A stretch of DNA of 40,525 nucleotides from the UHGV virus genome UHGV-0146833; one strand, 5' to 3'. The notes under the pieces are model-generated. The model had not been told where the DNA came from and searched no databases. It saw nothing but the letters and a program-made list of their open reading frames with translations. The stretch comes from a virus. A program made the position numbers and the translations under genes. Position 1 is the stretch's first letter, and each line of letters opens with the position of its first letter. Below are positions 3,032 to 17,320 of this stretch, one piece after another.

Positions 3032-3261
3032 TTAGCCTCCTTATTGTGCTGCAATTGCGACGAGAGAGATGCTGAATACCCCTGTGCTTCGTGTGTTAGC
3101 TCACACGCAATTTGAAGGAGCTTCCCGGCTTCTGATAGATAAATCGACGCCTCACAGCTGGATACTGTCCGATGGGCTGATGACACGAGCGCATAGACCT
3201 GAGCCAGACGTTCATCCAACGACTCCAGCAGGCCAACAGTGTTCATTTTTACCTGATTCAT
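3028..3261 (-). CDS. Hypothetical 77-aa protein, middle gene of the antirepressor operon
   Basis: ORF in track; 4-bp overlaps with the ORFs on both sides (translational coupling). Confidence 0.55.
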   Translation of the reverse strand: MNQVKMNTVGLLESLDERLAQVYALVSSAHRTVSSCEASIYLSEAGKLLQIACELTHEAQGYSASLSSQLQHNKEAK

Positions 3262-3422
3262 GCAGCCACCTCGCGCACCGGAATACGGGCAGACAATACC
3301 AGGACAAACCGGCTGGCGAACTGGCGACGAGCTTCCCGTTCAGATGACGCGATGGTGGAAAGATGATGGATATGTGACTTTTTGTCTGTGCGAACGACTG
3401 CCGCAAATTTGAATTTGAACAT
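3258..3422 (-). CDS. Icd-like small protein (54 aa), first gene of the antirepressor operon
   Basis: Not in ORF track (<60 aa). Hand translation: MFKFKFAAVVRTDKKSHIHHLSTIASSEREARRQFASRFVLVLSARIPVREVAA. GGAG RBS 8 nt upstream; stop overlaps next start (ATGA). The ASSER-AR-FVL-RIPV pattern resembles Icd-like cell-division inhibitors as I recall them. Confidence 0.5.
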   Translation of the reverse strand: MFKFKFAAVVRTDKKSHIHHLSTIASSEREARRQFASRFVLVLSARIPVREVAA

Positions 3423-3739: not shown

Positions 3740-3800
3740 ACAGGTGTTTTTATAGTTTGCTTGAACGAGTGATCAGAAGTTGATCGTTAATCAAAGGCCA

Positions 3801-4112
3801 TTACTGATTAAGAGATTGGAAATACCTAACTAACTTACCGGCATCATCACATTTTTCTTTATCTTCGTCCTTAACATAGCCGCGACAAAAGGCTGAATAA
3901 AATTTTGCATTTTCAGAAGCAAAAGCAGCCGTCGAAAGGAGCAACTCTTTGCATGACTCTTTTGATGCAGCATCGGGATTATTTTTACATGCAAGCTCCG
4001 CTGATGAGTTAATAACAGAAATGCTATCTTCCTGGGCATAAACCGCAGCAGAAAAGGCAAAACATAAAACAAAAATAAAACTCTTCACTTTATCTCCTGT
4101 AACAGTCATCAC
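3801..4112 (-). CDS. Small secreted Cys-containing protein (signal peptide, ~80-aa mature part)
   Basis: N-terminal hydrophobic stretch ending ...AVYA-QE typical of a Sec signal peptide; four Cys in mature part; AT-rich codon usage. Confidence 0.6.
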   Translation of the reverse strand: MMTVTGDKVKSFIFVLCFAFSAAVYAQEDSISVINSSAELACKNNPDAASKESCKELLLSTAAFASENAKFYSAFCRGYVKDEDKEKCDDAGKLVRYFQSLNQ

Positions 4113-4847: not shown

Positions 4848-5039
4848 TTACTCCCCGTTCACCGAAAAATCACGATAGAAACGTTTCCACATACGATAAG
4901 TCTGCGCGAGTTGTTCACCACGAAACATCGCCTTCCTGGCCTTCATGTTTTCCTTGTGAGACTTTCGATCTATGAACCAAAACCATTGCTGGAACACACA
5001 AAGCAAGAGACACAAAGATAATATCCACTGATTACCCAT
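4848..5039 (-). CDS. Hypothetical small membrane protein (63 aa), start overlapping the repA stop
   Basis: Internal ATG of track ORF 4848..5156; N-terminal hydrophobic helix (WILSLCLLLCVFQQWFWF); 4 nt before next gene's start. Confidence 0.4.
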   Translation of the reverse strand: MGNQWILSLCLLLCVFQQWFWFIDRKSHKENMKARKAMFRGEQLAQTYRMWKRFYRDFSVNGE

Positions 5040-8000
5040 AGAAAGCGCCCTGCTCTTCGTAGCTGCATGAGCTATTCCCGGTAATGTATTCTCGTAACCG
5101 CCGCAGTTCATTGCTAGACAAGTGATCCATGAACTCTGTGAGGTACAGAGATGCAAACGTCATAGCTATGCTGGCTGATGACCATGATGACATAGTGGCC
5201 AGCTCCTCACCGGAAAGCGCACTCATCGCCCAGGACTCAGGAACAGCCACAGGCAATACAGCCAAAGCCTGTGATATAGCTGAACGAGGGGGATCCTGTT
5301 CCTCCGTGTTTGTGGATCGCGTTTCACCATTCATATATATATTTAATGACAAATCGCGATCCACTTCGGTCGTTGATTTTTCTGCCTTGCGAGCTTTCAA
5401 CGTCATACCGTCCTCCTGACGTTGCGCAAGAATATCAAGCATAAATGCTACAGACTCAGGCTCAACAAAACGCAATGTCGGGCGCTTATCGCCATCTCTG
5501 CCGCGACGTTTTCCTGTTTTTAGGCCGAGAGAGTCGCAGATGTTTTTAAACAGTGCTTCCGGCACTTTAGGCTTCCCTTTTGGTGTCATAAAACCACCAA
5601 TGCGCAGAACGTTATTCAACAGGTCACGGCGTTCTGCTGTCATGAGATTATCTCGAGCGAACTTAAGGCGTTCCTGCGTCGCTTCGCCGGTCATAGTTTC
5701 AGGGTCGATACCGCAGTCGATAAAGTACTGCCGGAGAGTTGCTGATTTAAGCGCATAGAATCCGCGCATGCCGACCTCAACAGCTGGGGTGGCTTTTACC
5801 TTGTAGTCGATTATTCCCGGAAATTTCGCTTTGAATACATCATCAGCCTGCTCGCGTGTCATCGCGGTCACCACAAAATATTGCCACTGTCCGGTCTGGC
5901 GATATGCGTATGTAAAATTGATAGCCGCTTCTTCACGGTCATAACGACGGGCAGTGACTTCATCAAGCAGCATCGTTTCATAACGGCGAATTTTGTCTCG
6001 AGCGCCATCGAAATAGAATTTCAGTGTGCCTTCTTCAACCGGTAATTTCAGTTCGTTCTCAATATCCCAGCGGACCAGTTTTGCCTGTTCTTCAAGCGTT
6101 AGCGCACGTTTTTTTAGTAGTTCTTCACGCTCTGATTCTTCTGGTGTCTCTGTATTGAGGTGCAGATCCAGCGTCTGTTCCCACACAATATCCCGCGCTT
6201 CTTTGCGCAGCTCTTTACCAAAATCGTTCGCGGCATAATCGGTAGCTAATGGTGATACCTTATAACCGTCGCTGTGCATGATGCAGATCATGTTGCTGGC
6301 GTAGTCGTTACGCGCAGACGCTTCAATTGCGGCTGCTTTAATTTTCATCCTGGTAAAGTCGGTATTGGCTACCCCCATTGATATACGGTCGCCATCGAAA
6401 ATGACATCCGTCAGTTCACCGTTCATGCCTGCGGTAGCAAGTAATGCCTGGGCGAATGCACGTTCTATTTTTTGCGGATCAGTCTCGCGTTTTGCACGGG
6501 CTTTATCAAAGCCAATAATAAATTCTTTTGCTGTACGGTCGCGGCGTAGCATTTGCACTGCGTCGCTGGGCACAACTTCACCGCAGAACATGCCGAAATG
6601 ACGGTCAAAATGTTTTTTCTCAAATGACACCCCGGAGGAAATCGACGGGCTGTAGATCAGTCCATCGTATTTCATCACCATTACTTTTGGCTGGCTGGTA
6701 AAGGCATCGACTTCTTCATCCTGTTTGCTTTTCTGGTTTACGCACAGAAATTTCTTGCCAGGGAAATGCATTCTCAGGGTGGCGGTCACATCTTCTGCAA
6801 AGGTGGAGCTGTCGGTGGCCAACATAATTTTTTCGCCATCCGATACAGCTTTCACCACCTCGGTCATGATGCGATCTTTTTCTGTATAAAAAACCCGGAT
6901 TGGCTCACCTGTTTCGCGGTTGCGAACATCAACAGGTAATTCAATTACGTGGATCTGCAGCCATGCCGGTAAACCTAGTTCTTCACGGCGTTTCATAGCC
7001 AGTTCAGCCAGGTCAACCAGCAGATCGTTCGCATCAGCATCCACCATGATTGGGTGTTGTTCCGTTCTGGCCAGCGCGTCAATTAACGTATTGAATACAG
7101 CCACCGGGTTTTCCATAGCCCGACCGGAAAGAACGGCACGTAGCCCTTGTGTTGCCTCGTCAAAGCCAAAATAGTCGTGCTGGCGCATCAACGGTTGCCA
7201 GCAGTTTTTAACAATCGAGTTTATGCAGATGGTCAGTTTACTGGCGTATGGAGCCATTTCCTGATAGCCAGGGTCCTGATAGTGCAGGATATCGGCTTTT
7301 ACACCTTTTCCTTCTGTCATCATTTCCCACAGGCCACCAATAAGGGAGACACGGTGAGCAACAGAGATACCACGTTCTGAGCTATGCATTAACGGTCGTA
7401 ACAATCCAGTAGATTTGCCGGAACCCATACCAGCACGGACGATGACTATCCCCTGTAGTGATTGCACGTACTTCAGGACATCATCGGTCATTACCGAAGT
7501 TTCAAAACGCTTATAGGTGATATGTTGAGGGCGTTTATTGGGATCAGTTATGCGTTCGCTGAAAGAGCGCGGAGCCTGGGCAATACGGCACTTTTTATTC
7601 AGGCGACGGGCAATGTGGTCTTTTACCGTAGCGCGATAGATATTTTCCAGTCCCATTTCACGCAGAACGATGCAGAACATGTTAAATAAATCTGACGGAC
7701 TGTTAGGAACCGGACAGGTTAGCATGCCAATATCCACCGCTCTCAGCAGCTCTTTGGCAAAAGTACGACGGTTATCCCGCTTAATTGTCTTCAGGCGGTT
7801 GAGCGTCAGAGATAGCAAATCAGTGCCGGTTTTCAGGCGGTTTGCTGTTGCGAATAGTTGACGTGCTGTTTCACGAAGTCCACGTAGTTTGTGCAGGTCG
7901 TTGAAGTCACTGCACTCCATTTGCGGATCGTCTTCAAAAGTTGGGTAGACGCAGCGGACATCGTTGAATTTAGATAAGATTTCATAGCCAGTCCGCAGGC

Positions 8001-9027
8001 CGGTATTCCCTTTTCCTTCTGTGGCTGATTTCCGGTCATTATCCAGTGCGCAGGTGATTTTTGCCGCTGGGTACATGTTTACCAGTTGTTCCACAACATG
8101 AACCATGTTGTTAGCGGATACAGCGACAACCACAGCGTCAAAGCGTTTATCTTTTTTCGTGGCAAGCCAGATGGATGCACCAGTAGCAAAACCTTCTGTA
8201 ACAGCGATGTTTTGCGCCCCTTTCAGCTCACCGATAACAAAGCAGGCACCGACGAAATCGCCGCTGGTTACTGCGGTGGTCTGGTATTTCCCACCTTGTT
8301 TGTCGATTCGCTGCCAACCCACAATACGACCATCGTAACGACCGTCCAGATGAGCCAGAGGGATAGCCATATATGTGGTTGGCCCCCGGCTCCATTTCGC
8401 ACTGTCGTGACTGGTCACGCGACGCACATCACACGAATTAAAAACGTCACGAATACCTTTTTTAATCGCATATGGCCATGAGCCGTCTTCTGCAGGAGCA
8501 TGTTCCCACGCGCTGTGGAATGCCAGCCATCCCAGCAAACGTTCATGGTCCATTTGGTTGTTTTTCAGGTCATTAATTCGTTTTTGTTCTTCACGGCGAC
8601 GACGTGCTTCGGCCTGACGTTCTATTCTTGCCCGTTCTTCTTCCGGTTGTGCGACCACGGTCGCATTATTCCGTTGTTGCTCACGGCGATATTCAGAAAA
8701 CAGGAAGGAGAAACCGCTCCATGAGCCAGCATCGCTGCCTTTATGGACGAAGTTAATGAACGGGTAATCAATCCCTTTGCTGTGTTCCAGCCTGGAGTAA
8801 ATTTCTACGCGTCCTTTCAGGCTCTTTTCGAGAGCTTCTGGAGATGTTTTATTGTATGAAGAGTAACGCTCAACCCCCCCACGAGGGTTGAGTTGGATGT
8901 TGTCGGAACAGGCAGGCCAGTTGATACCAGCCATTTGTGCCAGCTCGGTTAGTTCATCCCGTGCTGCTTCAATTAGCGAGAACGGATCGCTGCCAAAGCG
9001 ATCCGCATAGAAATCGTTTAATGTCAT
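5032..9027 (-). CDS. repA: Replication protein RepA (primase-helicase multidomain, N15 RepA-like)
   Basis: 1331 aa (N15 RepA is about 1324 aa by recollection); Walker A-like GMGSGKST in the C-terminal half; position between the telN side and cB as in N15. Confidence 0.85.
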   Translation of the reverse strand: MTLNDFYADRFGSDPFSLIEAARDELTELAQMAGINWPACSDNIQLNPRGGVERYSSYNKTSPEALEKSLKGRVEIYSRLEHSKGIDYPFINFVHKGSDAGSWSGFSFLFSEYRREQQRNNATVVAQPEEERARIERQAEARRRREEQKRINDLKNNQMDHERLLGWLAFHSAWEHAPAEDGSWPYAIKKGIRDVFNSCDVRRVTSHDSAKWSRGPTTYMAIPLAHLDGRYDGRIVGWQRIDKQGGKYQTTAVTSGDFVGACFVIGELKGAQNIAVTEGFATGASIWLATKKDKRFDAVVVAVSANNMVHVVEQLVNMYPAAKITCALDNDRKSATEGKGNTGLRTGYEILSKFNDVRCVYPTFEDDPQMECSDFNDLHKLRGLRETARQLFATANRLKTGTDLLSLTLNRLKTIKRDNRRTFAKELLRAVDIGMLTCPVPNSPSDLFNMFCIVLREMGLENIYRATVKDHIARRLNKKCRIAQAPRSFSERITDPNKRPQHITYKRFETSVMTDDVLKYVQSLQGIVIVRAGMGSGKSTGLLRPLMHSSERGISVAHRVSLIGGLWEMMTEGKGVKADILHYQDPGYQEMAPYASKLTICINSIVKNCWQPLMRQHDYFGFDEATQGLRAVLSGRAMENPVAVFNTLIDALARTEQHPIMVDADANDLLVDLAELAMKRREELGLPAWLQIHVIELPVDVRNRETGEPIRVFYTEKDRIMTEVVKAVSDGEKIMLATDSSTFAEDVTATLRMHFPGKKFLCVNQKSKQDEEVDAFTSQPKVMVMKYDGLIYSPSISSGVSFEKKHFDRHFGMFCGEVVPSDAVQMLRRDRTAKEFIIGFDKARAKRETDPQKIERAFAQALLATAGMNGELTDVIFDGDRISMGVANTDFTRMKIKAAAIEASARNDYASNMICIMHSDGYKVSPLATDYAANDFGKELRKEARDIVWEQTLDLHLNTETPEESEREELLKKRALTLEEQAKLVRWDIENELKLPVEEGTLKFYFDGARDKIRRYETMLLDEVTARRYDREEAAINFTYAYRQTGQWQYFVVTAMTREQADDVFKAKFPGIIDYKVKATPAVEVGMRGFYALKSATLRQYFIDCGIDPETMTGEATQERLKFARDNLMTAERRDLLNNVLRIGGFMTPKGKPKVPEALFKNICDSLGLKTGKRRGRDGDKRPTLRFVEPESVAFMLDILAQRQEDGMTLKARKAEKSTTEVDRDLSLNIYMNGETRSTNTEEQDPPRSAISQALAVLPVAVPESWAMSALSGEELATMSSWSSASIAMTFASLYLTEFMDHLSSNELRRLREYITGNSSCSYEEQGAFYG
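8406..8419. repeat. Palindrome CGTGAC-TG-GTCACG inside repA (copy 2 of 3)
   Basis: Read directly. Confidence 0.7.
8650..8665. repeat. Palindrome TGCGACC-AC-GGTCGCA inside repA (centromere-like family, copy 1 of 6)
   Basis: Read directly; resembles the F-plasmid sopC inverted repeat (TGGGACCACGGTCCCA as I recall). Confidence 0.7.
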
Positions 9028-9078
9028 TTTTTAGCCATTCCATGCGAATTATGTTTTTTCGGGTTGAAAAAATCCGCA

Positions 9079-9140
9079 GGAGCAGCCACAATAAACGCAT
9101 CTTGAATTGACGGAATCCGTCGCGTTGTTGTGGCTGCTTC
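9079..9140. promoter_or_regulatory. Long-range inverted repeat (GGAGCAGCCACAA ... TTGTGGCTGCTTCC) upstream of repA; candidate repA promoter/operator or regulatory RNA structure
   Basis: 13-bp arms separated by ~35 bp containing a nested AACGC...GCGTT repeat; lies 50-110 bp upstream of the repA start. Confidence 0.3.
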
Positions 9141-9150
9141 CTGAAAAGGA

Positions 9151-9178
9151 CCCGAGTTTGCCGACTCGGGTTTTTTTT
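9151..9178 (+). terminator. Rho-independent terminator-like hairpin (CCCGAGT-TTGCC-GACTCGGG) plus T8, between cB and repA
   Basis: 8-bp GC-rich stem followed by TTTTTTTT on the plus strand, antisense to cB/repA; the minus-strand reading has a weaker U-tract. Confidence 0.5.
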
Positions 9179-9272
9179 CGTCTTTTTTCTGCTGCTGTAA
9201 CCTGAGTCAACCCACAGAACATATGCCCTGCATTAAACCAGATTTACAGCAAACAATAAACCCCGTATTAAG

Positions 9273-9869
9273 TCATCTACCCTCAACCATGAATGATTTG
9301 ATCGTTCCGACTATTTGGTGAACAAATTCAAGATCGCTTTTCCTGAAGATGGCGCGTTGTGAATTTGTTCCGTCCAAATAGTAATTTTCATCATCAAAAC
9401 GGGCCAGGCGCTGGATGGTGATATTTCCTGCAGTATCACGAACCAGAACATCCTCGCCGGGAACCAGTTCCAGCGCAGAATCGACCAGGAGAAAATCGCC
9501 TGGCTGATAGTTTCCCTGCGTCAGATTGCTGATAGTTAACGCATAAACAGTATTGCGCTGGCTGATGAATGGCAGGAATCGCTCAGTATTTGGAACCTGT
9601 CCTGGCTTCCACTCTTCATCAGGTCCACTTTCAGTTGTGCCAATAACAGGAATGCGATCAGGGTCATATTCTGTCCCATACAGCACCCAATGCACTGGCT
9701 TTCGTAAGCACTTAGCCAGGGCAATACCTATCTCCAGTGACGGCATTACGTCGCCACGTTCTAAGTTTTGGACGCCTGCAATAGAGATATCGACAGCCTC
9801 AGCAACTTCTCGCAACGTCAGCTTCATCTCTAAACGGCGTGCTTTCAGTCGTTCGCCTCGTGTTTTCAT
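9273..9869 (-). CDS. cB: Prophage repressor CB (CI-like: N-terminal HTH, C-terminal S24 peptidase-like domain)
   Basis: 198 aa; HTH segment LTLREVAEAVDISIAGVQNLERG; C-terminal LexA/CI-like fold; divergent from cro with operators between. Confidence 0.85.
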   Translation of the reverse strand: MKTRGERLKARRLEMKLTLREVAEAVDISIAGVQNLERGDVMPSLEIGIALAKCLRKPVHWVLYGTEYDPDRIPVIGTTESGPDEEWKPGQVPNTERFLPFISQRNTVYALTISNLTQGNYQPGDFLLVDSALELVPGEDVLVRDTAGNITIQRLARFDDENYYLDGTNSQRAIFRKSDLEFVHQIVGTIKSFMVEGR

Positions 9870-9891
9870 AGCTTAATCATAAATGATCTTC

Positions 9892-9933
9892 TTATAGCTG
9901 GCTATAAAATTTATTTATTATAGCTAGCTTTAA
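9892..9933. promoter_or_regulatory. Repressor operators in the cB-cro intergenic region: TTATAGC-TG-GCTATAA (9892-9907) and TTATAGC-TA-GCTTTAA (9918-9933); TATAAT at 9949-9954
   Basis: Two 16-bp palindromic sites read directly between divergent cB and cro. Confidence 0.7.
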
Positions 9934-9960
9934 ATGTGATTTATTGCTTATAATAACCGC

Positions 9961-10182
9961 ATGAAACCAGAAGAACTTATTCGCCACTTTGGCAGTGTAG
10001 AAAAAGCAGCGGCTGGGGTAGGTGTAACACCCGGTGCTGTTTACCAATGGTTAACCGCTGGAGAGATTCCTTCATTGCGGCAAAGTGATATTGAAGTTCG
10101 TACTGCTTACAAGCTGAAGAGTGACTTTACAACTCGGCGGGTAAAGCAGTCGATTAAGGAGAGCCGTAAGCGTGGAGCTTGA
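9961..10182 (+). CDS. cro: Cro-like HTH regulator
   Basis: 73 aa, HTH GVGVTPGAVYQWLTAGEIP; divergent from repressor. Confidence 0.8.
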   Translation: MKPEELIRHFGSVEKAAAGVGVTPGAVYQWLTAGEIPSLRQSDIEVRTAYKLKSDFTTRRVKQSIKESRKRGA

Positions 10183-10882
10183 GTATATACGCAGCTGCGT
10201 CTCTACGGCATTGGCTGATGTTCATTATCGCCAGCGTGGCATTCTGGAGGTCCAGCTTGAGCAGATGCGTCTCGGTAGATCAGGACGGTTTAACAATAAA
10301 CCAGTCCGGTTAATCAGTGTGGGGGATGATAACTCATACGAAGTGTCCGTTCCTGCTGAGCCGGTTAGATTCCACCAGGGGAAAACATTTAAACAATCAT
10401 CAATGTTGCTCACTGATATTGATTTTCAGAGCGCCAGCTGGCGCAGGGCTATTGGTCAGTTGAATAACGAGGAATCAGCCTGGCTTTATTATTGCTACGG
10501 ATGCAAGCCTGATTACAACAATGATGTGATTGTTTGTCAGTGGTTATGGCTTGATTTTCTGGTTGCTCATTCGGGGGGCGGCTTTAAAAAAATGAAGGCC
10601 TCCACGAAAAAAGCCATGCGGAAATTGATTTATTACGCGGCACAGCAGGTTAAATCAGAACTTACGTGTGCTGAGGCAGTTGATGAGAGAGAACAGGACA
10701 GGCATCTGAGTTTTCTACTGAATATATCTATTGATAGCTGGAGACAAGATTATAAAGAACGCTGGCTTTTAATTAAGTCGCGATGTCTGAGCTTAAATCG
10801 AACTGCATTATTAAATGCGGCGGAGAAGCGCAGTGAAATCATCAAACGCCATCGGGCAGGAAGTGCCATTCTGCCTTTGTAA
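10172..10882 (+). CDS. Hypothetical 236-aa protein; candidate late-gene antiterminator (Q-like) by position after cro
   Basis: GTG start with AAGGAG RBS, overlaps cro end; Cys cluster YYCYGC...C. Function inferred from N15 gene order only. Confidence 0.55.
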   Translation: MELEYIRSCVSTALADVHYRQRGILEVQLEQMRLGRSGRFNNKPVRLISVGDDNSYEVSVPAEPVRFHQGKTFKQSSMLLTDIDFQSASWRRAIGQLNNEESAWLYYCYGCKPDYNNDVIVCQWLWLDFLVAHSGGGFKKMKASTKKAMRKLIYYAAQQVKSELTCAEAVDEREQDRHLSFLLNISIDSWRQDYKERWLLIKSRCLSLNRTALLNAAEKRSEIIKRHRAGSAILPL

Positions 10883-16243: not shown

Positions 16244-17320
16244 ATGTTCAAAACCACTAATATTCATGGCGCACAACTCGTTTGCGCAGATTCTCTGCAA
16301 TTTATCAAAACCATCCCTGATAACTCGGTCAATTTGATTGCAACAGACCCACCATACTTCGGCGTAAAGGCTAACGCATGGGATAACCAGTGGGATAGCG
16401 ATGCTGACTTTTTGGGGTGGATTGACGAATTTTTGGCAGAATTTTGGCGGATATTGGCCCCTAATGGCAGCCTGTATATGTTTACCGGCTCTCGCCTTGC
16501 GTCAAAAATTGAATTATTAACTCGCGATCGTTTCAATGTTCTGAACCATATCATTTGGGCTAAACCCAGTGGTATGTGGCGCGGTTGTCATAAAGAAAGT
16601 TTAAGGGCTTATTTTCCTGCTACTGAAAGAATATTATTTGCAGAGCATTACGGCGCGTCAGGTTATGCTAAAGGTCAGTCAGGTTATGCTTCAAAATGTG
16701 CAGATTTAAGAAAAAATATTTTTTCTCCACTAATTGATGCTTTTTCGCTGGCTCGCCGTCAGTTAGATATATCAGCCGCAGACATTAATTCAGCGACAGG
16801 AAAGCAGATGTGTTCGCACTGGTTTTCTTATTCGCAGTGGCGGCTTCCATCATTAATTGATTTTAATAAACTATGCGAATTATTTCGCAGGAAGGCAGAT
16901 TCACTCGGTGTCCCGTGTCCATATCCTTTTAATGTTGATTATTCAGAACATGAAAAGTGTTATAGCGATCTGAAATTGCATTATGAGGAAGTAAAGAAGC
17001 AGTATGATGATTTGAAGGCTCAGTATGAAAATTTGCGTCGCCCATTTCATGTTACTGCAGATGTGCCTTATACCGATGTATGGGAGTTTCCTCCTGTGCA
17101 ATATTATCCTGGCAAGCACCCATGTGAAAAACCTGCAGCGATGATGGAACATATTATAAAGAGTAGTTCACGCCCCGGGGATATCGTTGCCGATTTCTTT
17201 ATGGGATCAGGCTCAACTATTAAAGCTGCGCTGAAGTTAGGACGTCAGGCAATAGGTATTGAGATTGAGAGCGAACGTTATCTTCAGACAGTTGATGAAG
17301 TGAAAAAGTTATTTGAGTAA
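16244..17320 (+). CDS. DNA N6-adenine/N4-cytosine methyltransferase (beta-class, DPPY catalytic motif)
   Basis: ATDPPYF near the N-terminus and FFMGSGST (AdoMet-binding FxGxG) near the C-terminus, a motif order typical of beta-class amino-methyltransferases; no restriction endonuclease partner adjacent. Confidence 0.8.
   Translation: MFKTTNIHGAQLVCADSLQFIKTIPDNSVNLIATDPPYFGVKANAWDNQWDSDADFLGWIDEFLAEFWRILAPNGSLYMFTGSRLASKIELLTRDRFNVLNHIIWAKPSGMWRGCHKESLRAYFPATERILFAEHYGASGYAKGQSGYASKCADLRKNIFSPLIDAFSLARRQLDISAADINSATGKQMCSHWFSYSQWRLPSLIDFNKLCELFRRKADSLGVPCPYPFNVDYSEHEKCYSDLKLHYEEVKKQYDDLKAQYENLRRPFHVTADVPYTDVWEFPPVQYYPGKHPCEKPAAMMEHIIKSSSRPGDIVADFFMGSGSTIKAALKLGRQAIGIEIESERYLQTVDEVKKLFE

What the first reader, a model, noticed from the sequence alone, without database searches (positions are those of the whole stretch)
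9028..9272. Structured non-coding region between cB and repA: long-range inverted repeat plus a strong plus-strand terminator antisense to both genes
Directly seen: 13-bp arms (9079-9091 and 9127-9140) around a 35-bp spacer with a nested repeat, followed by an 8-bp GC stem and T8 (9151-9178) oriented on the plus strand, where no protein-coding gene exists. No TTATAGC-type repressor operator is present here. Inference: this could specify a short plus-strand countertranscript, or a leader structure that controls repA expression or copy number independently of the repressor.
Basis: partly seen in the sequence, partly recalled or inferred. Interest (0 to 1): 0.4.

Follow-up and report, generated by a model that had tools for sequence, protein, structure and literature searches.

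The report
N15-type repA leader copy-control region
The structured spacer between cB and repA is the counterpart of the replication-control leader already annotated in phage-plasmid N15 (repressor-controlled promoter, two-way terminator, candidate short antisense RNA), so it is a real but known element.

Summary
The described features exist. There is a long inverted repeat (9081-9094 / 9125-9138, extendable to 9079-9143), a nested hairpin (9108-9122), and an 8-bp GC-rich stem followed by T8 (9150-9178) on the plus strand.

The window is an N15-like linear phage-plasmid. The spacer is homologous to the N15 cB-repA spacer. GenBank U45242.1 already annotates that spacer with 'Pinc, promoter of putative antisense RNA', the antisense terminator, a leader terminator, CB operators OL1/OL2 and the repA promoter PL.

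Pinc (TTGAAA-17-CACAAT, 9064-9092) and the terminator lie in the two longest invariant runs (42 and 39 nt) of a 1.5-kb alignment of 30 relatives. The 44 nt between them are hypervariable.

9244-9259 is the fourth-best CB-operator match in the whole window, and PL is conserved.

PY54 shares the architecture without alignable sequence.

Most likely function: an ~80-nt countertranscript plus leader attenuation, acting on repA together with CB.

Weak points: the 5' hairpin of the predicted RNA is no better than shuffled sequence, no transcript data exist, and the inhibitory step is inferred.

Verdict: already known, modest interest.

The parts
9025..9027 (-). repA start codon (repA ORF 5032-9027)
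   Evidence: ORF list. RepA N-terminus is 83% identical to N15 gp37.
9033..9045 (-). repA ribosome-binding region (mRNA GCAUGGAAUGGCU)
   Evidence: Homologous to the RBS annotated at 23-35 of U45242.1.
9055..9096 (.). Invariant block 1: 42 nt identical in all 30 relatives. It holds Pinc, the left arm, and an anti-SD-like stretch in the mRNA sense.
   Evidence: Longest invariant run in the 1.5-kb alignment. Third codon positions are invariant at only 20-28% (alignment A1).
9064..9069 (+). Pinc -35 hexamer TTGAAA
   Evidence: Promoter scan 9/12 with 17-nt spacer. Identical to N15 'Pinc minus_35' at 56-61.
9087..9092 (+). Pinc -10 hexamer CACAAT, lying inside the left arm of the long repeat
   Evidence: Identical to N15 'Pinc minus_10' at 79-84.
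9099..9178 (+). Predicted ~80-nt countertranscript: 5' tail, hairpin SL1, terminator hairpin, U8
   Evidence: Fold -30.8 kcal/mol, z -4.1. Same topology in 28 distinct variants. SL1 alone is not significant. The start site is inferred from the -10 position.
9079..9143 (-). Long imperfect hairpin of the repA leader. The 5' arm is 9143-9122 and the 3' arm is 9098-9079 in mRNA sense.
   Evidence: z -6.8. Forms in 28/28 variants.
9099..9142 (.). Hypervariable apical segment (8 of 44 columns invariant, with indels). Includes the nested hairpin 9108-9122.
   Evidence: Pairwise identity to N15, phiKO2 and two further relatives is 40-55%, against 75-79% in the flanking genes.
9143..9178 (.). Bidirectional intrinsic terminator: stem 9150-9157 / 9164-9171, T8 on the + strand, only CCUUUUC on the - strand
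   Evidence: N15 annotates a terminator on both strands. phiKO2 annotates 'putative bidirectional'.
9180..9189 (+). Second T-run (GTCTTTTTTC), part of invariant block 2 (9151-9189)
   Evidence: Direct repeat D1. Invariant run of 39 nt.
9221..9236 (.). OL1 homologue ATATGCCCTGCATTAA (weak)
   Evidence: Aligned with N15 OL1 at 214-229. Keeps T-A-N10-T-A. Matrix rank 23.
9244..9259 (.). OL2 homologue TTACAGCAAACAATAA
   Evidence: Aligned with N15 OL2 at 237-252. Matrix rank 4 of 40,510, directly after OR3, OR2 and OR1.
9232..9260 (-). PL, the repA promoter: -10 TTTAAT (9237-9232) and -35 TTTATT (9260-9255)
   Evidence: Hexamers identical to those annotated in U45242.1 at 225-230 and 248-253.
9273..9869 (-). 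cB prophage repressor gene
   Evidence: ORF. Homologous to N15 gene 38.
9024..9089 (-). Short ORF (GUG, 21 codons, UGA) whose stop overlaps the repA AUG as AUGA. Probably fortuitous.
   Evidence: It has no SD, its start lies in the stem, and its frame differs between clades.

Best explanation
This is the replication-control leader of an N15-family linear phage-plasmid.

**Proposed mechanism**
- repA is transcribed leftward from PL (9260-9232), which overlaps two CB-repressor operator homologues.
- The resulting ~200-nt leader first meets a hairpin at 9178-9150. On this strand the hairpin is a weak attenuator.
- The leader then folds into a long hairpin (9143-9079).
- On the opposite strand, promoter Pinc (9064-9092) sits inside the invariant left arm. 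It is predicted to start an ~80-nt RNA at about 9099, which the same hairpin plus T8 terminates efficiently at 9178.
- This countertranscript is perfectly complementary to the leader. Its amount would follow gene dosage, giving negative feedback on RepA synthesis in addition to CB repression.
- Pairing would open the long leader hairpin and free its invariant 3' arm. Folding predicts that this arm (UCCUGCGGAUU) can then sequester the repA Shine-Dalgarno region. Duplex cleavage or enhanced termination are alternative routes to the same outcome.

**Shown**: the sequence features, their homology to the annotated N15 features, the conservation pattern and the folding statistics.

**Inferred**: that Pinc fires, that the RNA acts on the leader, and which step it blocks.
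For: - **Homology.** blastn gives 77% identity to N15 over 99% of an 8800-9500 query. The N15 record annotates Pinc, both terminators, OL1/OL2 and PL at the aligned positions. phiKO2 annotates a bidirectional terminator.
- **Conservation.** 9055-9096 (42 nt) and 9151-9189 (39 nt) are the longest invariant runs among 30 relatives. Third codon positions in those relatives are only 20-28% invariant.
- **Terminator orientation.** T8 follows the stem on the + strand and U4 follows it on the - strand. There is no + strand gene for about 4 kb upstream.
- **Predicted RNA shape.** It folds into tail + hairpin + terminator in 28 variants.
- **Leader hairpin.** z -6.8, retained in 28/28 variants.
- **PY54 and P840 (RepA 47% identical, spacer sequence not alignable).** They show the same layout: an antisense -35 TTGCGC / 18 nt / -10 TACAAT inside the left arm of a long repeat, followed by an antisense-oriented terminator.
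- **phiHAP-1.** It also has an antisense promoter-like site and an antisense hairpin upstream of repA.
- **CB control.** The OL2 homologue ranks 4th in the window. CB binding to OL sites lowers repA transcription and copy number in N15 and phiKO2 (PMC4997575, PMC4488713).
- **SD accessibility.** Blocking 9099-9178 lowers the predicted SD accessibility from about 0.5 to about 0.23 in short transcripts.
Against: - No transcript data were available, and the N15 annotation itself says 'putative'.
- Pinc is only a 9/12 consensus match. Promoter-like sites are not enriched in the region (2 found, 2.3 expected).
- The 5' hairpin of the predicted RNA is no more stable than dinucleotide shuffles (mean z -0.35). 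Its plus/minus asymmetry is therefore compositional.
- An alignment-free test for co-evolution of its two halves was weak: -8.8 kcal/mol for cognate pairs against -7.4 for non-cognate pairs.
- RNAalifold found covariation only-free pairs in the terminator, which never varies.
- The SD-sequestration switch disappears in longer transcripts, where the SD already pairs with codons 5-9. In PY54 the anti-SD pairing forms in both states.
- The duplex ends about 55 nt upstream of the SD, so direct occlusion is excluded.
- N15 and phiKO2 are incompatible despite different apical segments (PMC4488713). The variable segment is therefore not a proven specificity determinant.
Confidence: 0.6

Rival explanations
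1. There is no functional antisense RNA. The hairpin plus T-run is a bidirectional terminator that insulates the cB and repA transcription units and stops stray antisense transcription out of repA. The long hairpin and invariant block act only in cis on the leader mRNA, affecting stability, RNase III processing, SD sequestration or binding of a protein.
For: - The Pinc match is modest and not above chance on its own.
- SL1 of the predicted RNA is not significant.
- The only statistically strong structure needs both arms, which only the leader mRNA contains.
- The SD is predicted to pair with codons 5-9 regardless of any antisense.
- phiKO2's depositors annotated only a bidirectional terminator.
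Against: - The terminator is much stronger in the plus orientation (T8 against U4), where there is nothing else to terminate.
- The left arm is invariant while the right arm varies. The left arm therefore carries a constraint beyond pairing, such as a promoter.
- PY54 and P840 independently place a better -10 (TACAAT) in the left arm, upstream of an antisense terminator.
Confidence: 0.22
2. IncFII (R1)-like translational coupling. A short leader ORF (GUG 9089 to UGA 9026-9024, overlapping the repA AUG as AUGA) must be translated to open the repA RBS. The countertranscript duplex, ending at 9099 just upstream of that start codon, would block its initiation.
For: - In every clade an ORF of 19-25 codons ends within 4 nt of the repA AUG, despite frame-shifting indels.
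- The SD of repA is predicted to be paired in full-length leaders, as is typical of coupled genes.
- The gene order repressor, repressed promoter, antisense gene, rep parallels R1 copB-PrepA-copA-tap-repA (established knowledge).
Against: - No Shine-Dalgarno sequence precedes the GUG, and the start lies inside the stable stem.
- The frame and start codon differ between clades.
- Two of the three frames carry a stop next to the AUG simply because of the sequence CUAAAAAAUGA, so such ORFs are expected by chance.
- PY54 was not examined for an equivalent ORF.
Confidence: 0.08
3. Countertranscript-driven transcription attenuation of the pT181 / pIP501 type. Antisense binding to the nascent leader would favour a terminator upstream of repA.
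For: - The leader holds a terminator-like hairpin, annotated in N15 as 'terminator of repA leader transcript'.
- It also has a U6 run at 9072-9067, downstream of the long hairpin.
Against: - The annotated leader terminator is transcribed before the rest of the antisense target, so downstream pairing cannot control it.
- The U6 run lies 4 nt beyond the base of the long hairpin. Antisense pairing would destroy that hairpin, not create it.
- No antisense-dependent terminator appears in constrained folds.
Confidence: 0.06

Closest known systems
Phage-plasmid N15 cB-repA spacer: Pinc / putative antisense RNA, leader terminator, OL1-OL2, PL (GenBank U45242.1, Lobocka et al. 1996)
   Same: - Same position between cB and repA.
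- Identical Pinc -35 and -10 hexamers with the same 17-nt spacer.
- Identical terminator stem and T8.
- Identical PL hexamers, and the same 23-bp spacing of the two operator positions.
   Different: - The apical 44 nt are only about 48% identical.
- The operator homologues are degenerate (TTACAG and ATATGC in place of TTATAG and GTATAG).
- The minus-strand U-run is 4 rather than 5, so the leader attenuator should be weaker here.
phiKO2 'putative bidirectional terminator' and OL region (AY374448; PMC4997575)
   Same: Same terminator and invariant blocks. CB binding to the two OL sites was shown by EMSA in phiKO2 (PMC4997575).
   Different: phiKO2 has canonical TTATAG operators and a different apical segment with a 2-nt bulge. 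No antisense promoter is annotated there.
IncFII plasmid R1 copy control (CopB repressor plus CopA antisense RNA on the repA leader)
   Same: - Dual control by a repressor gene upstream of rep that represses a promoter between itself and rep.
- A short terminator-ended countertranscript encoded inside the leader.
- Basal expression possible by read-through from the repressor gene.

This comparison rests on established knowledge of R1.
   Different: - No sequence or Rfam similarity.
- No convincing tap-like leader peptide.
- The repressor is the phage immunity repressor, so replication control is tied to lysogeny.
- The antisense promoter is embedded in one arm of the target hairpin.
PY54 / vB_YenS-P840 cI-repA spacer
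   Same: Same architecture: a repA-sense promoter after cI, an antisense-oriented strong terminator, a long inverted repeat whose left arm holds an antisense -10, and an SD paired to an upstream anti-SD.
   Different: No alignable sequence, and a different incompatibility group (PMC4488713). The element is not annotated in those records.

Membership tests
N15-type repA leader / Pinc countertranscript region (U45242.1 annotation) | Lies between the prophage repressor gene cB and repA of an N15-like telomere phage, with both genes on the same strand | tested here: met
   ORFs 5032-9027 and 9273-9869 are both on the minus strand. Homology to N15 genes 37 and 38.
N15-type repA leader / Pinc countertranscript region (U45242.1 annotation) | Nucleotide homology to the N15 spacer, including Pinc -35 TTGAAA / 17 nt / -10 CACAAT | tested here: met
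   Hexamers and spacer are identical to N15 56-84. Invariant in 30 relatives.
N15-type repA leader / Pinc countertranscript region (U45242.1 annotation) | Hairpin with flanking A-run and T-run that can terminate on both strands | tested here: met
   Stem and T8 are identical to N15 133-171. The minus-strand U-run is shorter (4) in this clade.
N15-type repA leader / Pinc countertranscript region (U45242.1 annotation) | Two CB operators (OL1, OL2) overlapping the repA promoter PL | tested here: inconclusive
   PL hexamers, the 23-bp spacing and T-A-N10-T-A are conserved. The OL2 homologue ranks 4th in the window, but the OL1 homologue ranks only 23rd. Binding was not tested.
N15-type repA leader / Pinc countertranscript region (U45242.1 annotation) | A plus-strand ~80-nt transcript is made and lowers repA expression or copy number | not testable with these tools
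   No expression data. The primary papers (Lobocka 1996; Mardanov and Ravin 2006; Ravin 2011, 2015) are not in the held library.
Countertranscript copy control of the R1 CopA/CopT type | Short antisense RNA with a stem-loop and intrinsic terminator, encoded inside the rep leader | tested here: inconclusive
   The predicted RNA has this shape in 28 variants. Its 5' hairpin is not better than shuffles.
Countertranscript copy control of the R1 CopA/CopT type | Leader peptide (tap) translationally coupled to rep, with initiation blocked by the duplex | tested here: inconclusive
   An ORF ending at AUGA exists, but it lacks an SD and its frame differs between clades.
Countertranscript copy control of the R1 CopA/CopT type | Sequence or structure match to a curated RNA family (CopA, RNAI and similar) | tested here: not met
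   cmscan against Rfam 15 found nothing above gathering score. The best hit was NsiR1 at 26.4 bits against a threshold of 39, over the terminator only.
Antisense-driven transcription attenuation (pT181 / pIP501 type) | Antisense pairing switches the leader from an antiterminator to a terminator upstream of the rep RBS | tested here: not met
   Constrained folds give no antisense-dependent terminator. The annotated leader terminator precedes the rest of the target.

The most novel reading that the evidence does not exclude
The invariant left arm would be a triple-duty sequence: the promoter of the countertranscript at the DNA level, the 3' arm of the leader hairpin, and an anti-Shine-Dalgarno element once the hairpin is opened. 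The hypervariable apical 44 nt would be a specificity cassette. That cassette would let related N15-like phage-plasmids escape each other's antisense control. PY54, whose sequence is unrelated, would have conserved the same design.
Probability: 0.2. Interest if true: 0.45.

Novelty: already known. Interest (0 to 1): 0.2.

Why it matters
The region sets how much RepA a linear phage-plasmid makes, and so its copy number and its coupling to lysogeny. N15-like elements are common in clinical Klebsiella and occur in E. coli: 214 plasmid records and 18 of 5,426 complete E. coli genomes. Current automated annotation leaves this spacer blank, and no Rfam family matches it.

What this analysis adds to the 1996 annotation is modest:
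- two ultraconserved blocks flank a hypervariable apex;
- the architecture recurs in PY54 without sequence similarity;
- a candidate anti-SD pairing is predicted.

These points give precise targets for mutagenesis and could seed an RNA family. They do not change the picture of how such replicons are controlled.

Tried and rejected
- **Rfam scan** of 8500-10200 at E<=10 gave only sub-threshold hits on the terminator.
- **RNAalifold** on a MAFFT alignment of 27 predicted RNAs recovered only the invariant terminator. The variable hairpin was misaligned, so there is no usable covariation.
- **Chimera test.** The 5' half of SL1 from one variant was combined with the 3' half of another. Cognate pairs were only slightly better (-8.8 against -7.4 kcal/mol) and often not the best. 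This was rejected as evidence of co-evolution.
- **Plus/minus asymmetry of SL1** (28/28) looked like strand-specific selection. Dinucleotide shuffles showed it is compositional, so it was rejected as evidence.
- **Strand asymmetry of the long hairpin**: none found (-33.5 against -33.6).
- **SD-sequestration switch**: it holds only for short transcripts and is not reproduced as a switch in PY54. It is kept only as a low-confidence inference.
- **Conserved leader peptide**: not convincing.
- **Alternative plus-strand promoter** upstream of the left arm, which would put the whole hairpin in the antisense RNA: none was seen by eye or by the scan.
- **Co-residence** of two N15-like elements in E. 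coli genomes, to test the specificity idea: none found; 18 records in 18 genomes.
- **Primary N15 literature** could not be read, and text searches found no paper describing the antisense RNA.
- **Pattern-based collection scans** are biased for conservation of 9064-9096. They were used only for variant diversity, not for the conservation statistics.

Full report
**What the window is**

The window is an N15-like linear phage-plasmid.
- An 8800-9500 query is 98.7-98.9% identical to Escherichia phages YDC107_1 and PhiR46_1, and 77% identical to N15 over 99% of its length.
- The 1331-codon minus-strand ORF 5032-9027 is repA. Its first 300 residues are 83% identical to N15 gp37.
- The minus-strand ORF 9273-9869 is the prophage repressor cB.
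- cro begins at 9961 on the plus strand, downstream of three canonical operators at 9892-9907, 9918-9933 and 9941-9956.

**Check of the observation**

- The inverted repeat has arms at 9081-9094 and 9125-9138: 14 nt, 93% complementary, 30 nt apart.
- A nested hairpin lies at 9108-9122.
- The stem ACCCGAGT / ACTCGGGT (9150-9157 / 9164-9171) is followed by T8 (9171-9178). The scan calls it a terminator on the plus strand only.
- The 72-nt segment holding both arms folds at -35.5 kcal/mol, against -16.3 +/- 2.8 for shuffles (z -6.8). This is not a chance structure.
- The exact heptamer TTATAGC is indeed absent from the spacer.

**What it corresponds to**

N15 record U45242.1 annotates exactly this spacer. 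The window equivalents below were read from the sequence and placed by alignment.

| N15 feature (U45242.1) | N15 position | Window equivalent |
|---|---|---|
| repA ribosome-binding site | 23-35 | 9033-9045 |
| 'Pinc; promoter of putative antisense RNA', -35 / -10 | 56-61 / 79-84 | 9064-9069 / 9087-9092 |
| 'putative terminator of repA leader transcript' (minus strand) | 133-163 | within 9143-9178 |
| 'putative terminator of RNA antisense to repA transcript' (plus strand) | 144-171 | within 9143-9178 |
| CB operator OL1 | 214-229 | 9221-9236 |
| CB operator at 237-252 (annotated 'OR2' in the record, called OL2 here) | 237-252 | 9244-9259 |
| PL -10 / -35 (minus strand) | 225-230 / 248-253 | 9237-9232 / 9260-9255 |

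- Comparing the N15 sequence with the window and the 24-sequence alignment shows that the Pinc hexamers, their 17-nt spacer, the terminator and the PL hexamers are identical in the window.
- phiKO2 annotates the same hairpin as a 'putative bidirectional' terminator.

**The operator question**

- The aligned OL positions in the window read ATATGCCCTGCATTAA (9221-9236) and TTACAGCAAACAATAA (9244-9259).
- Both keep the 23-bp spacing and the T-A-N10-T-A motif. That motif is reported as common to all N15 and phiKO2 operators (PMC4997575).
- A weight matrix built only from the five N15 operators ranks the window's OR3, OR2 and OR1 first to third. It ranks 9244-9259 fourth of 40,510 positions and 9221-9236 only 23rd.
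- In N15 and phiKO2, CB binds the OL sites and lowers repA transcription and copy number (PMC4997575, PMC4488713). Antirepressor expression raises the copy number of N15 vectors about tenfold (PMC2847241).
- The region is therefore not independent of the repressor. In this clade the operators are degenerate, and binding remains to be tested.

**Conservation pattern**

I aligned 1.5 kb around the spacer from 30 distinct relatives. They were found by BLAST or by RepA protein similarity, so they were not selected on the motif.

| Region | Invariant columns |
|---|---|
| Third codon positions, repA | 20% |
| Third codon positions, cB | 28% |
| Second codon positions | about 80% |
| 9055-9098 | 42 of 44 |
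| 9143-9196 | 49 of 54 |
| 9099-9142 | 8 of 44, with indels |

- The two longest invariant runs in the whole alignment are 9055-9096 (42 nt) and 9151-9189 (39 nt).
- Between the window and four compared relatives (N15, phiKO2, L020, L035), the segment 9099-9142 is only 40-55% identical.
- The left arm (with Pinc) and the terminator are under stronger constraint than the flanking proteins. The apex of the hairpin drifts at a neutral-like rate.
- The left arm never changes while the right arm does, accommodating the changes with bulges. The left arm therefore carries a constraint beyond pairing.

**Structures**

- The predicted Pinc RNA runs from about 9099 to 9178, 80-86 nt depending on the variant. 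In all 28 distinct variants collected it folds into a 12-nt tail, a hairpin and the terminator. For the window, z is -4.1.
- Controls weaken the case for the 5' hairpin:
  - alone it has z -1.5 in the window;
  - the mean z over variants is -0.35;
  - its greater stability on the plus strand in 28/28 variants is therefore compositional;
  - a chimera test for co-evolution of its halves was weak;
  - RNAalifold recovered only the invariant terminator.
- The robust structure is the long hairpin, which needs both arms. Given the Pinc position, both arms are present only in the leader mRNA. The hairpin forms in 28/28 variants, equally well on either strand.

**Mechanism**

- The full leader folds into the terminator hairpin, the long hairpin, and a stem that pairs the SD region (9048-9037) with codons 5-9 (9013-9002).
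- If 9099-9178 is made unavailable, as it would be in a duplex with the countertranscript, the invariant 3' arm is freed. It then pairs UCCUGCGGAUU with AAUUCGCAUGGA across the SD.
- Predicted SD accessibility falls from about 0.5 to about 0.23 in transcripts ending at 9020-9010. It does not change in longer transcripts.
- In PY54 an analogous anti-SD pairing forms in both states.
- I therefore treat 'antisense opens the hairpin, the anti-SD closes the RBS' as the most plausible route, held with low confidence. Duplex cleavage and effects on termination remain possible.
- Direct RBS occlusion is excluded, because the duplex ends about 55 nt upstream of the SD.
- An attenuation switch of the pT181 type is not supported by the folds.

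**Distant relatives**

- PY54 and P840 have RepA 47% identical to the window's, and a spacer that blastn does not align.
- They still show a repA-sense promoter after cI and a strong terminator oriented antisense to repA. They also have a long inverted repeat whose left arm contains an antisense -10 (TTGCGC / 18 nt / TACAAT).
- phiHAP-1 has an antisense promoter-like site next to repA and an antisense hairpin upstream. VP882 has only a promoter-like site.
- This recurrence without sequence similarity is the best independent support for a functional antisense unit.

**Other readings**

- A 21-codon ORF runs from GUG 9089 to a UGA that overlaps the repA AUG. An ORF ending within 4 nt of that AUG exists in every clade. 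This recalls tap-repA coupling in plasmid R1.
- However, there is no SD, the frames differ between clades, and two of the three frames carry a stop there anyway. I rate this reading low.
- A purely cis-acting leader plus insulating terminator remains the main rival.

**Distribution and annotation**

- The spacer occurs in 214 PLSDB plasmids, mostly from Klebsiella.
- It occurs in 18 of 5,426 complete E. coli genomes, always on plasmids, with no genome holding two records.
- Most E. coli rows list no annotated feature under the match, and Rfam has no matching family.

**Verdict**

The element is the already described, still formally putative, N15-type repA leader and countertranscript control region. 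Novelty is low and interest is modest.

Noticed in passing
window 9002-9013 and 9037-9048: The repA SD region is predicted to pair with codons 5-9 of repA (UUCGCAUGGAAU / AUUUCUAUGCGGA). Several positions in those first codons are invariant among relatives. This suggests a conserved RBS-sequestering stem that is independent of any antisense RNA.
   Followed up: partly
L037 (K. aerogenes plasmid NZ_CP014747) about 985-1030, aligned to window about 9250-9300: Homology to the window stops inside the OL2 position, and a different XRE-family repressor gene follows. The leader, Pinc and terminator therefore travel with repA across a recombination breakpoint that swaps the immunity repressor.
   Followed up: no
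window 3750-3765 and 16960-16975: These are further good matches to the N15 CB-operator matrix (TTATAGTTTGCTTGAA, rank 5; TTATAGCGATCTGAAA, rank 7). By offset to PhiR46_1, the first lies in the intergenic region upstream of the leftward operon that holds a putative antirepressor. These may be extra repressor sites.
   Followed up: no
L013 and L015 (IMG/VR contig 3300045988_113976); also L081: Single contigs carry two copies of the repA leader, in inverted orientation in the first case. This looks like head-to-head dimers of a hairpin-ended linear plasmid, or an assembly artefact of such ends.
   Followed up: no
L034 (Klebsiella phage Kpn74, OQ790078): Similarity to the window ends at about the repA start. 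Unrelated small ORFs replace the whole control leader, and the record has repeat annotations and three matching places. This is a rearranged or misassembled genome.
   Followed up: no
L124 (phiHAP-1) 940-1112: An antisense promoter-like site (TTGAAC-17-TATACT) lies just upstream of repA. A GC-rich antisense hairpin lies about 140 nt further on. This hints that antisense units in repA leaders may be general among telomere phages.
   Followed up: partly
window about 3804-4091 (by offset to PhiR46_1 record 3086-3373): The near-identical phage PhiR46_1 annotates a 'Spackle exclusion protein' gene downstream of repA. This is an unexpected superinfection-exclusion annotation for an N15-like element.
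   Followed up: no
window 9143-9149, compared with relatives in alignment A1 columns 150-160: The A-run upstream of the terminator is 4 in this clade, 5 in N15 and 6 in the Klebsiella clade. The minus-strand (repA-sense) U-run therefore varies from 4 to 6 while the plus-strand T8 never changes. Leader attenuation strength may differ between clades.
   Followed up: no
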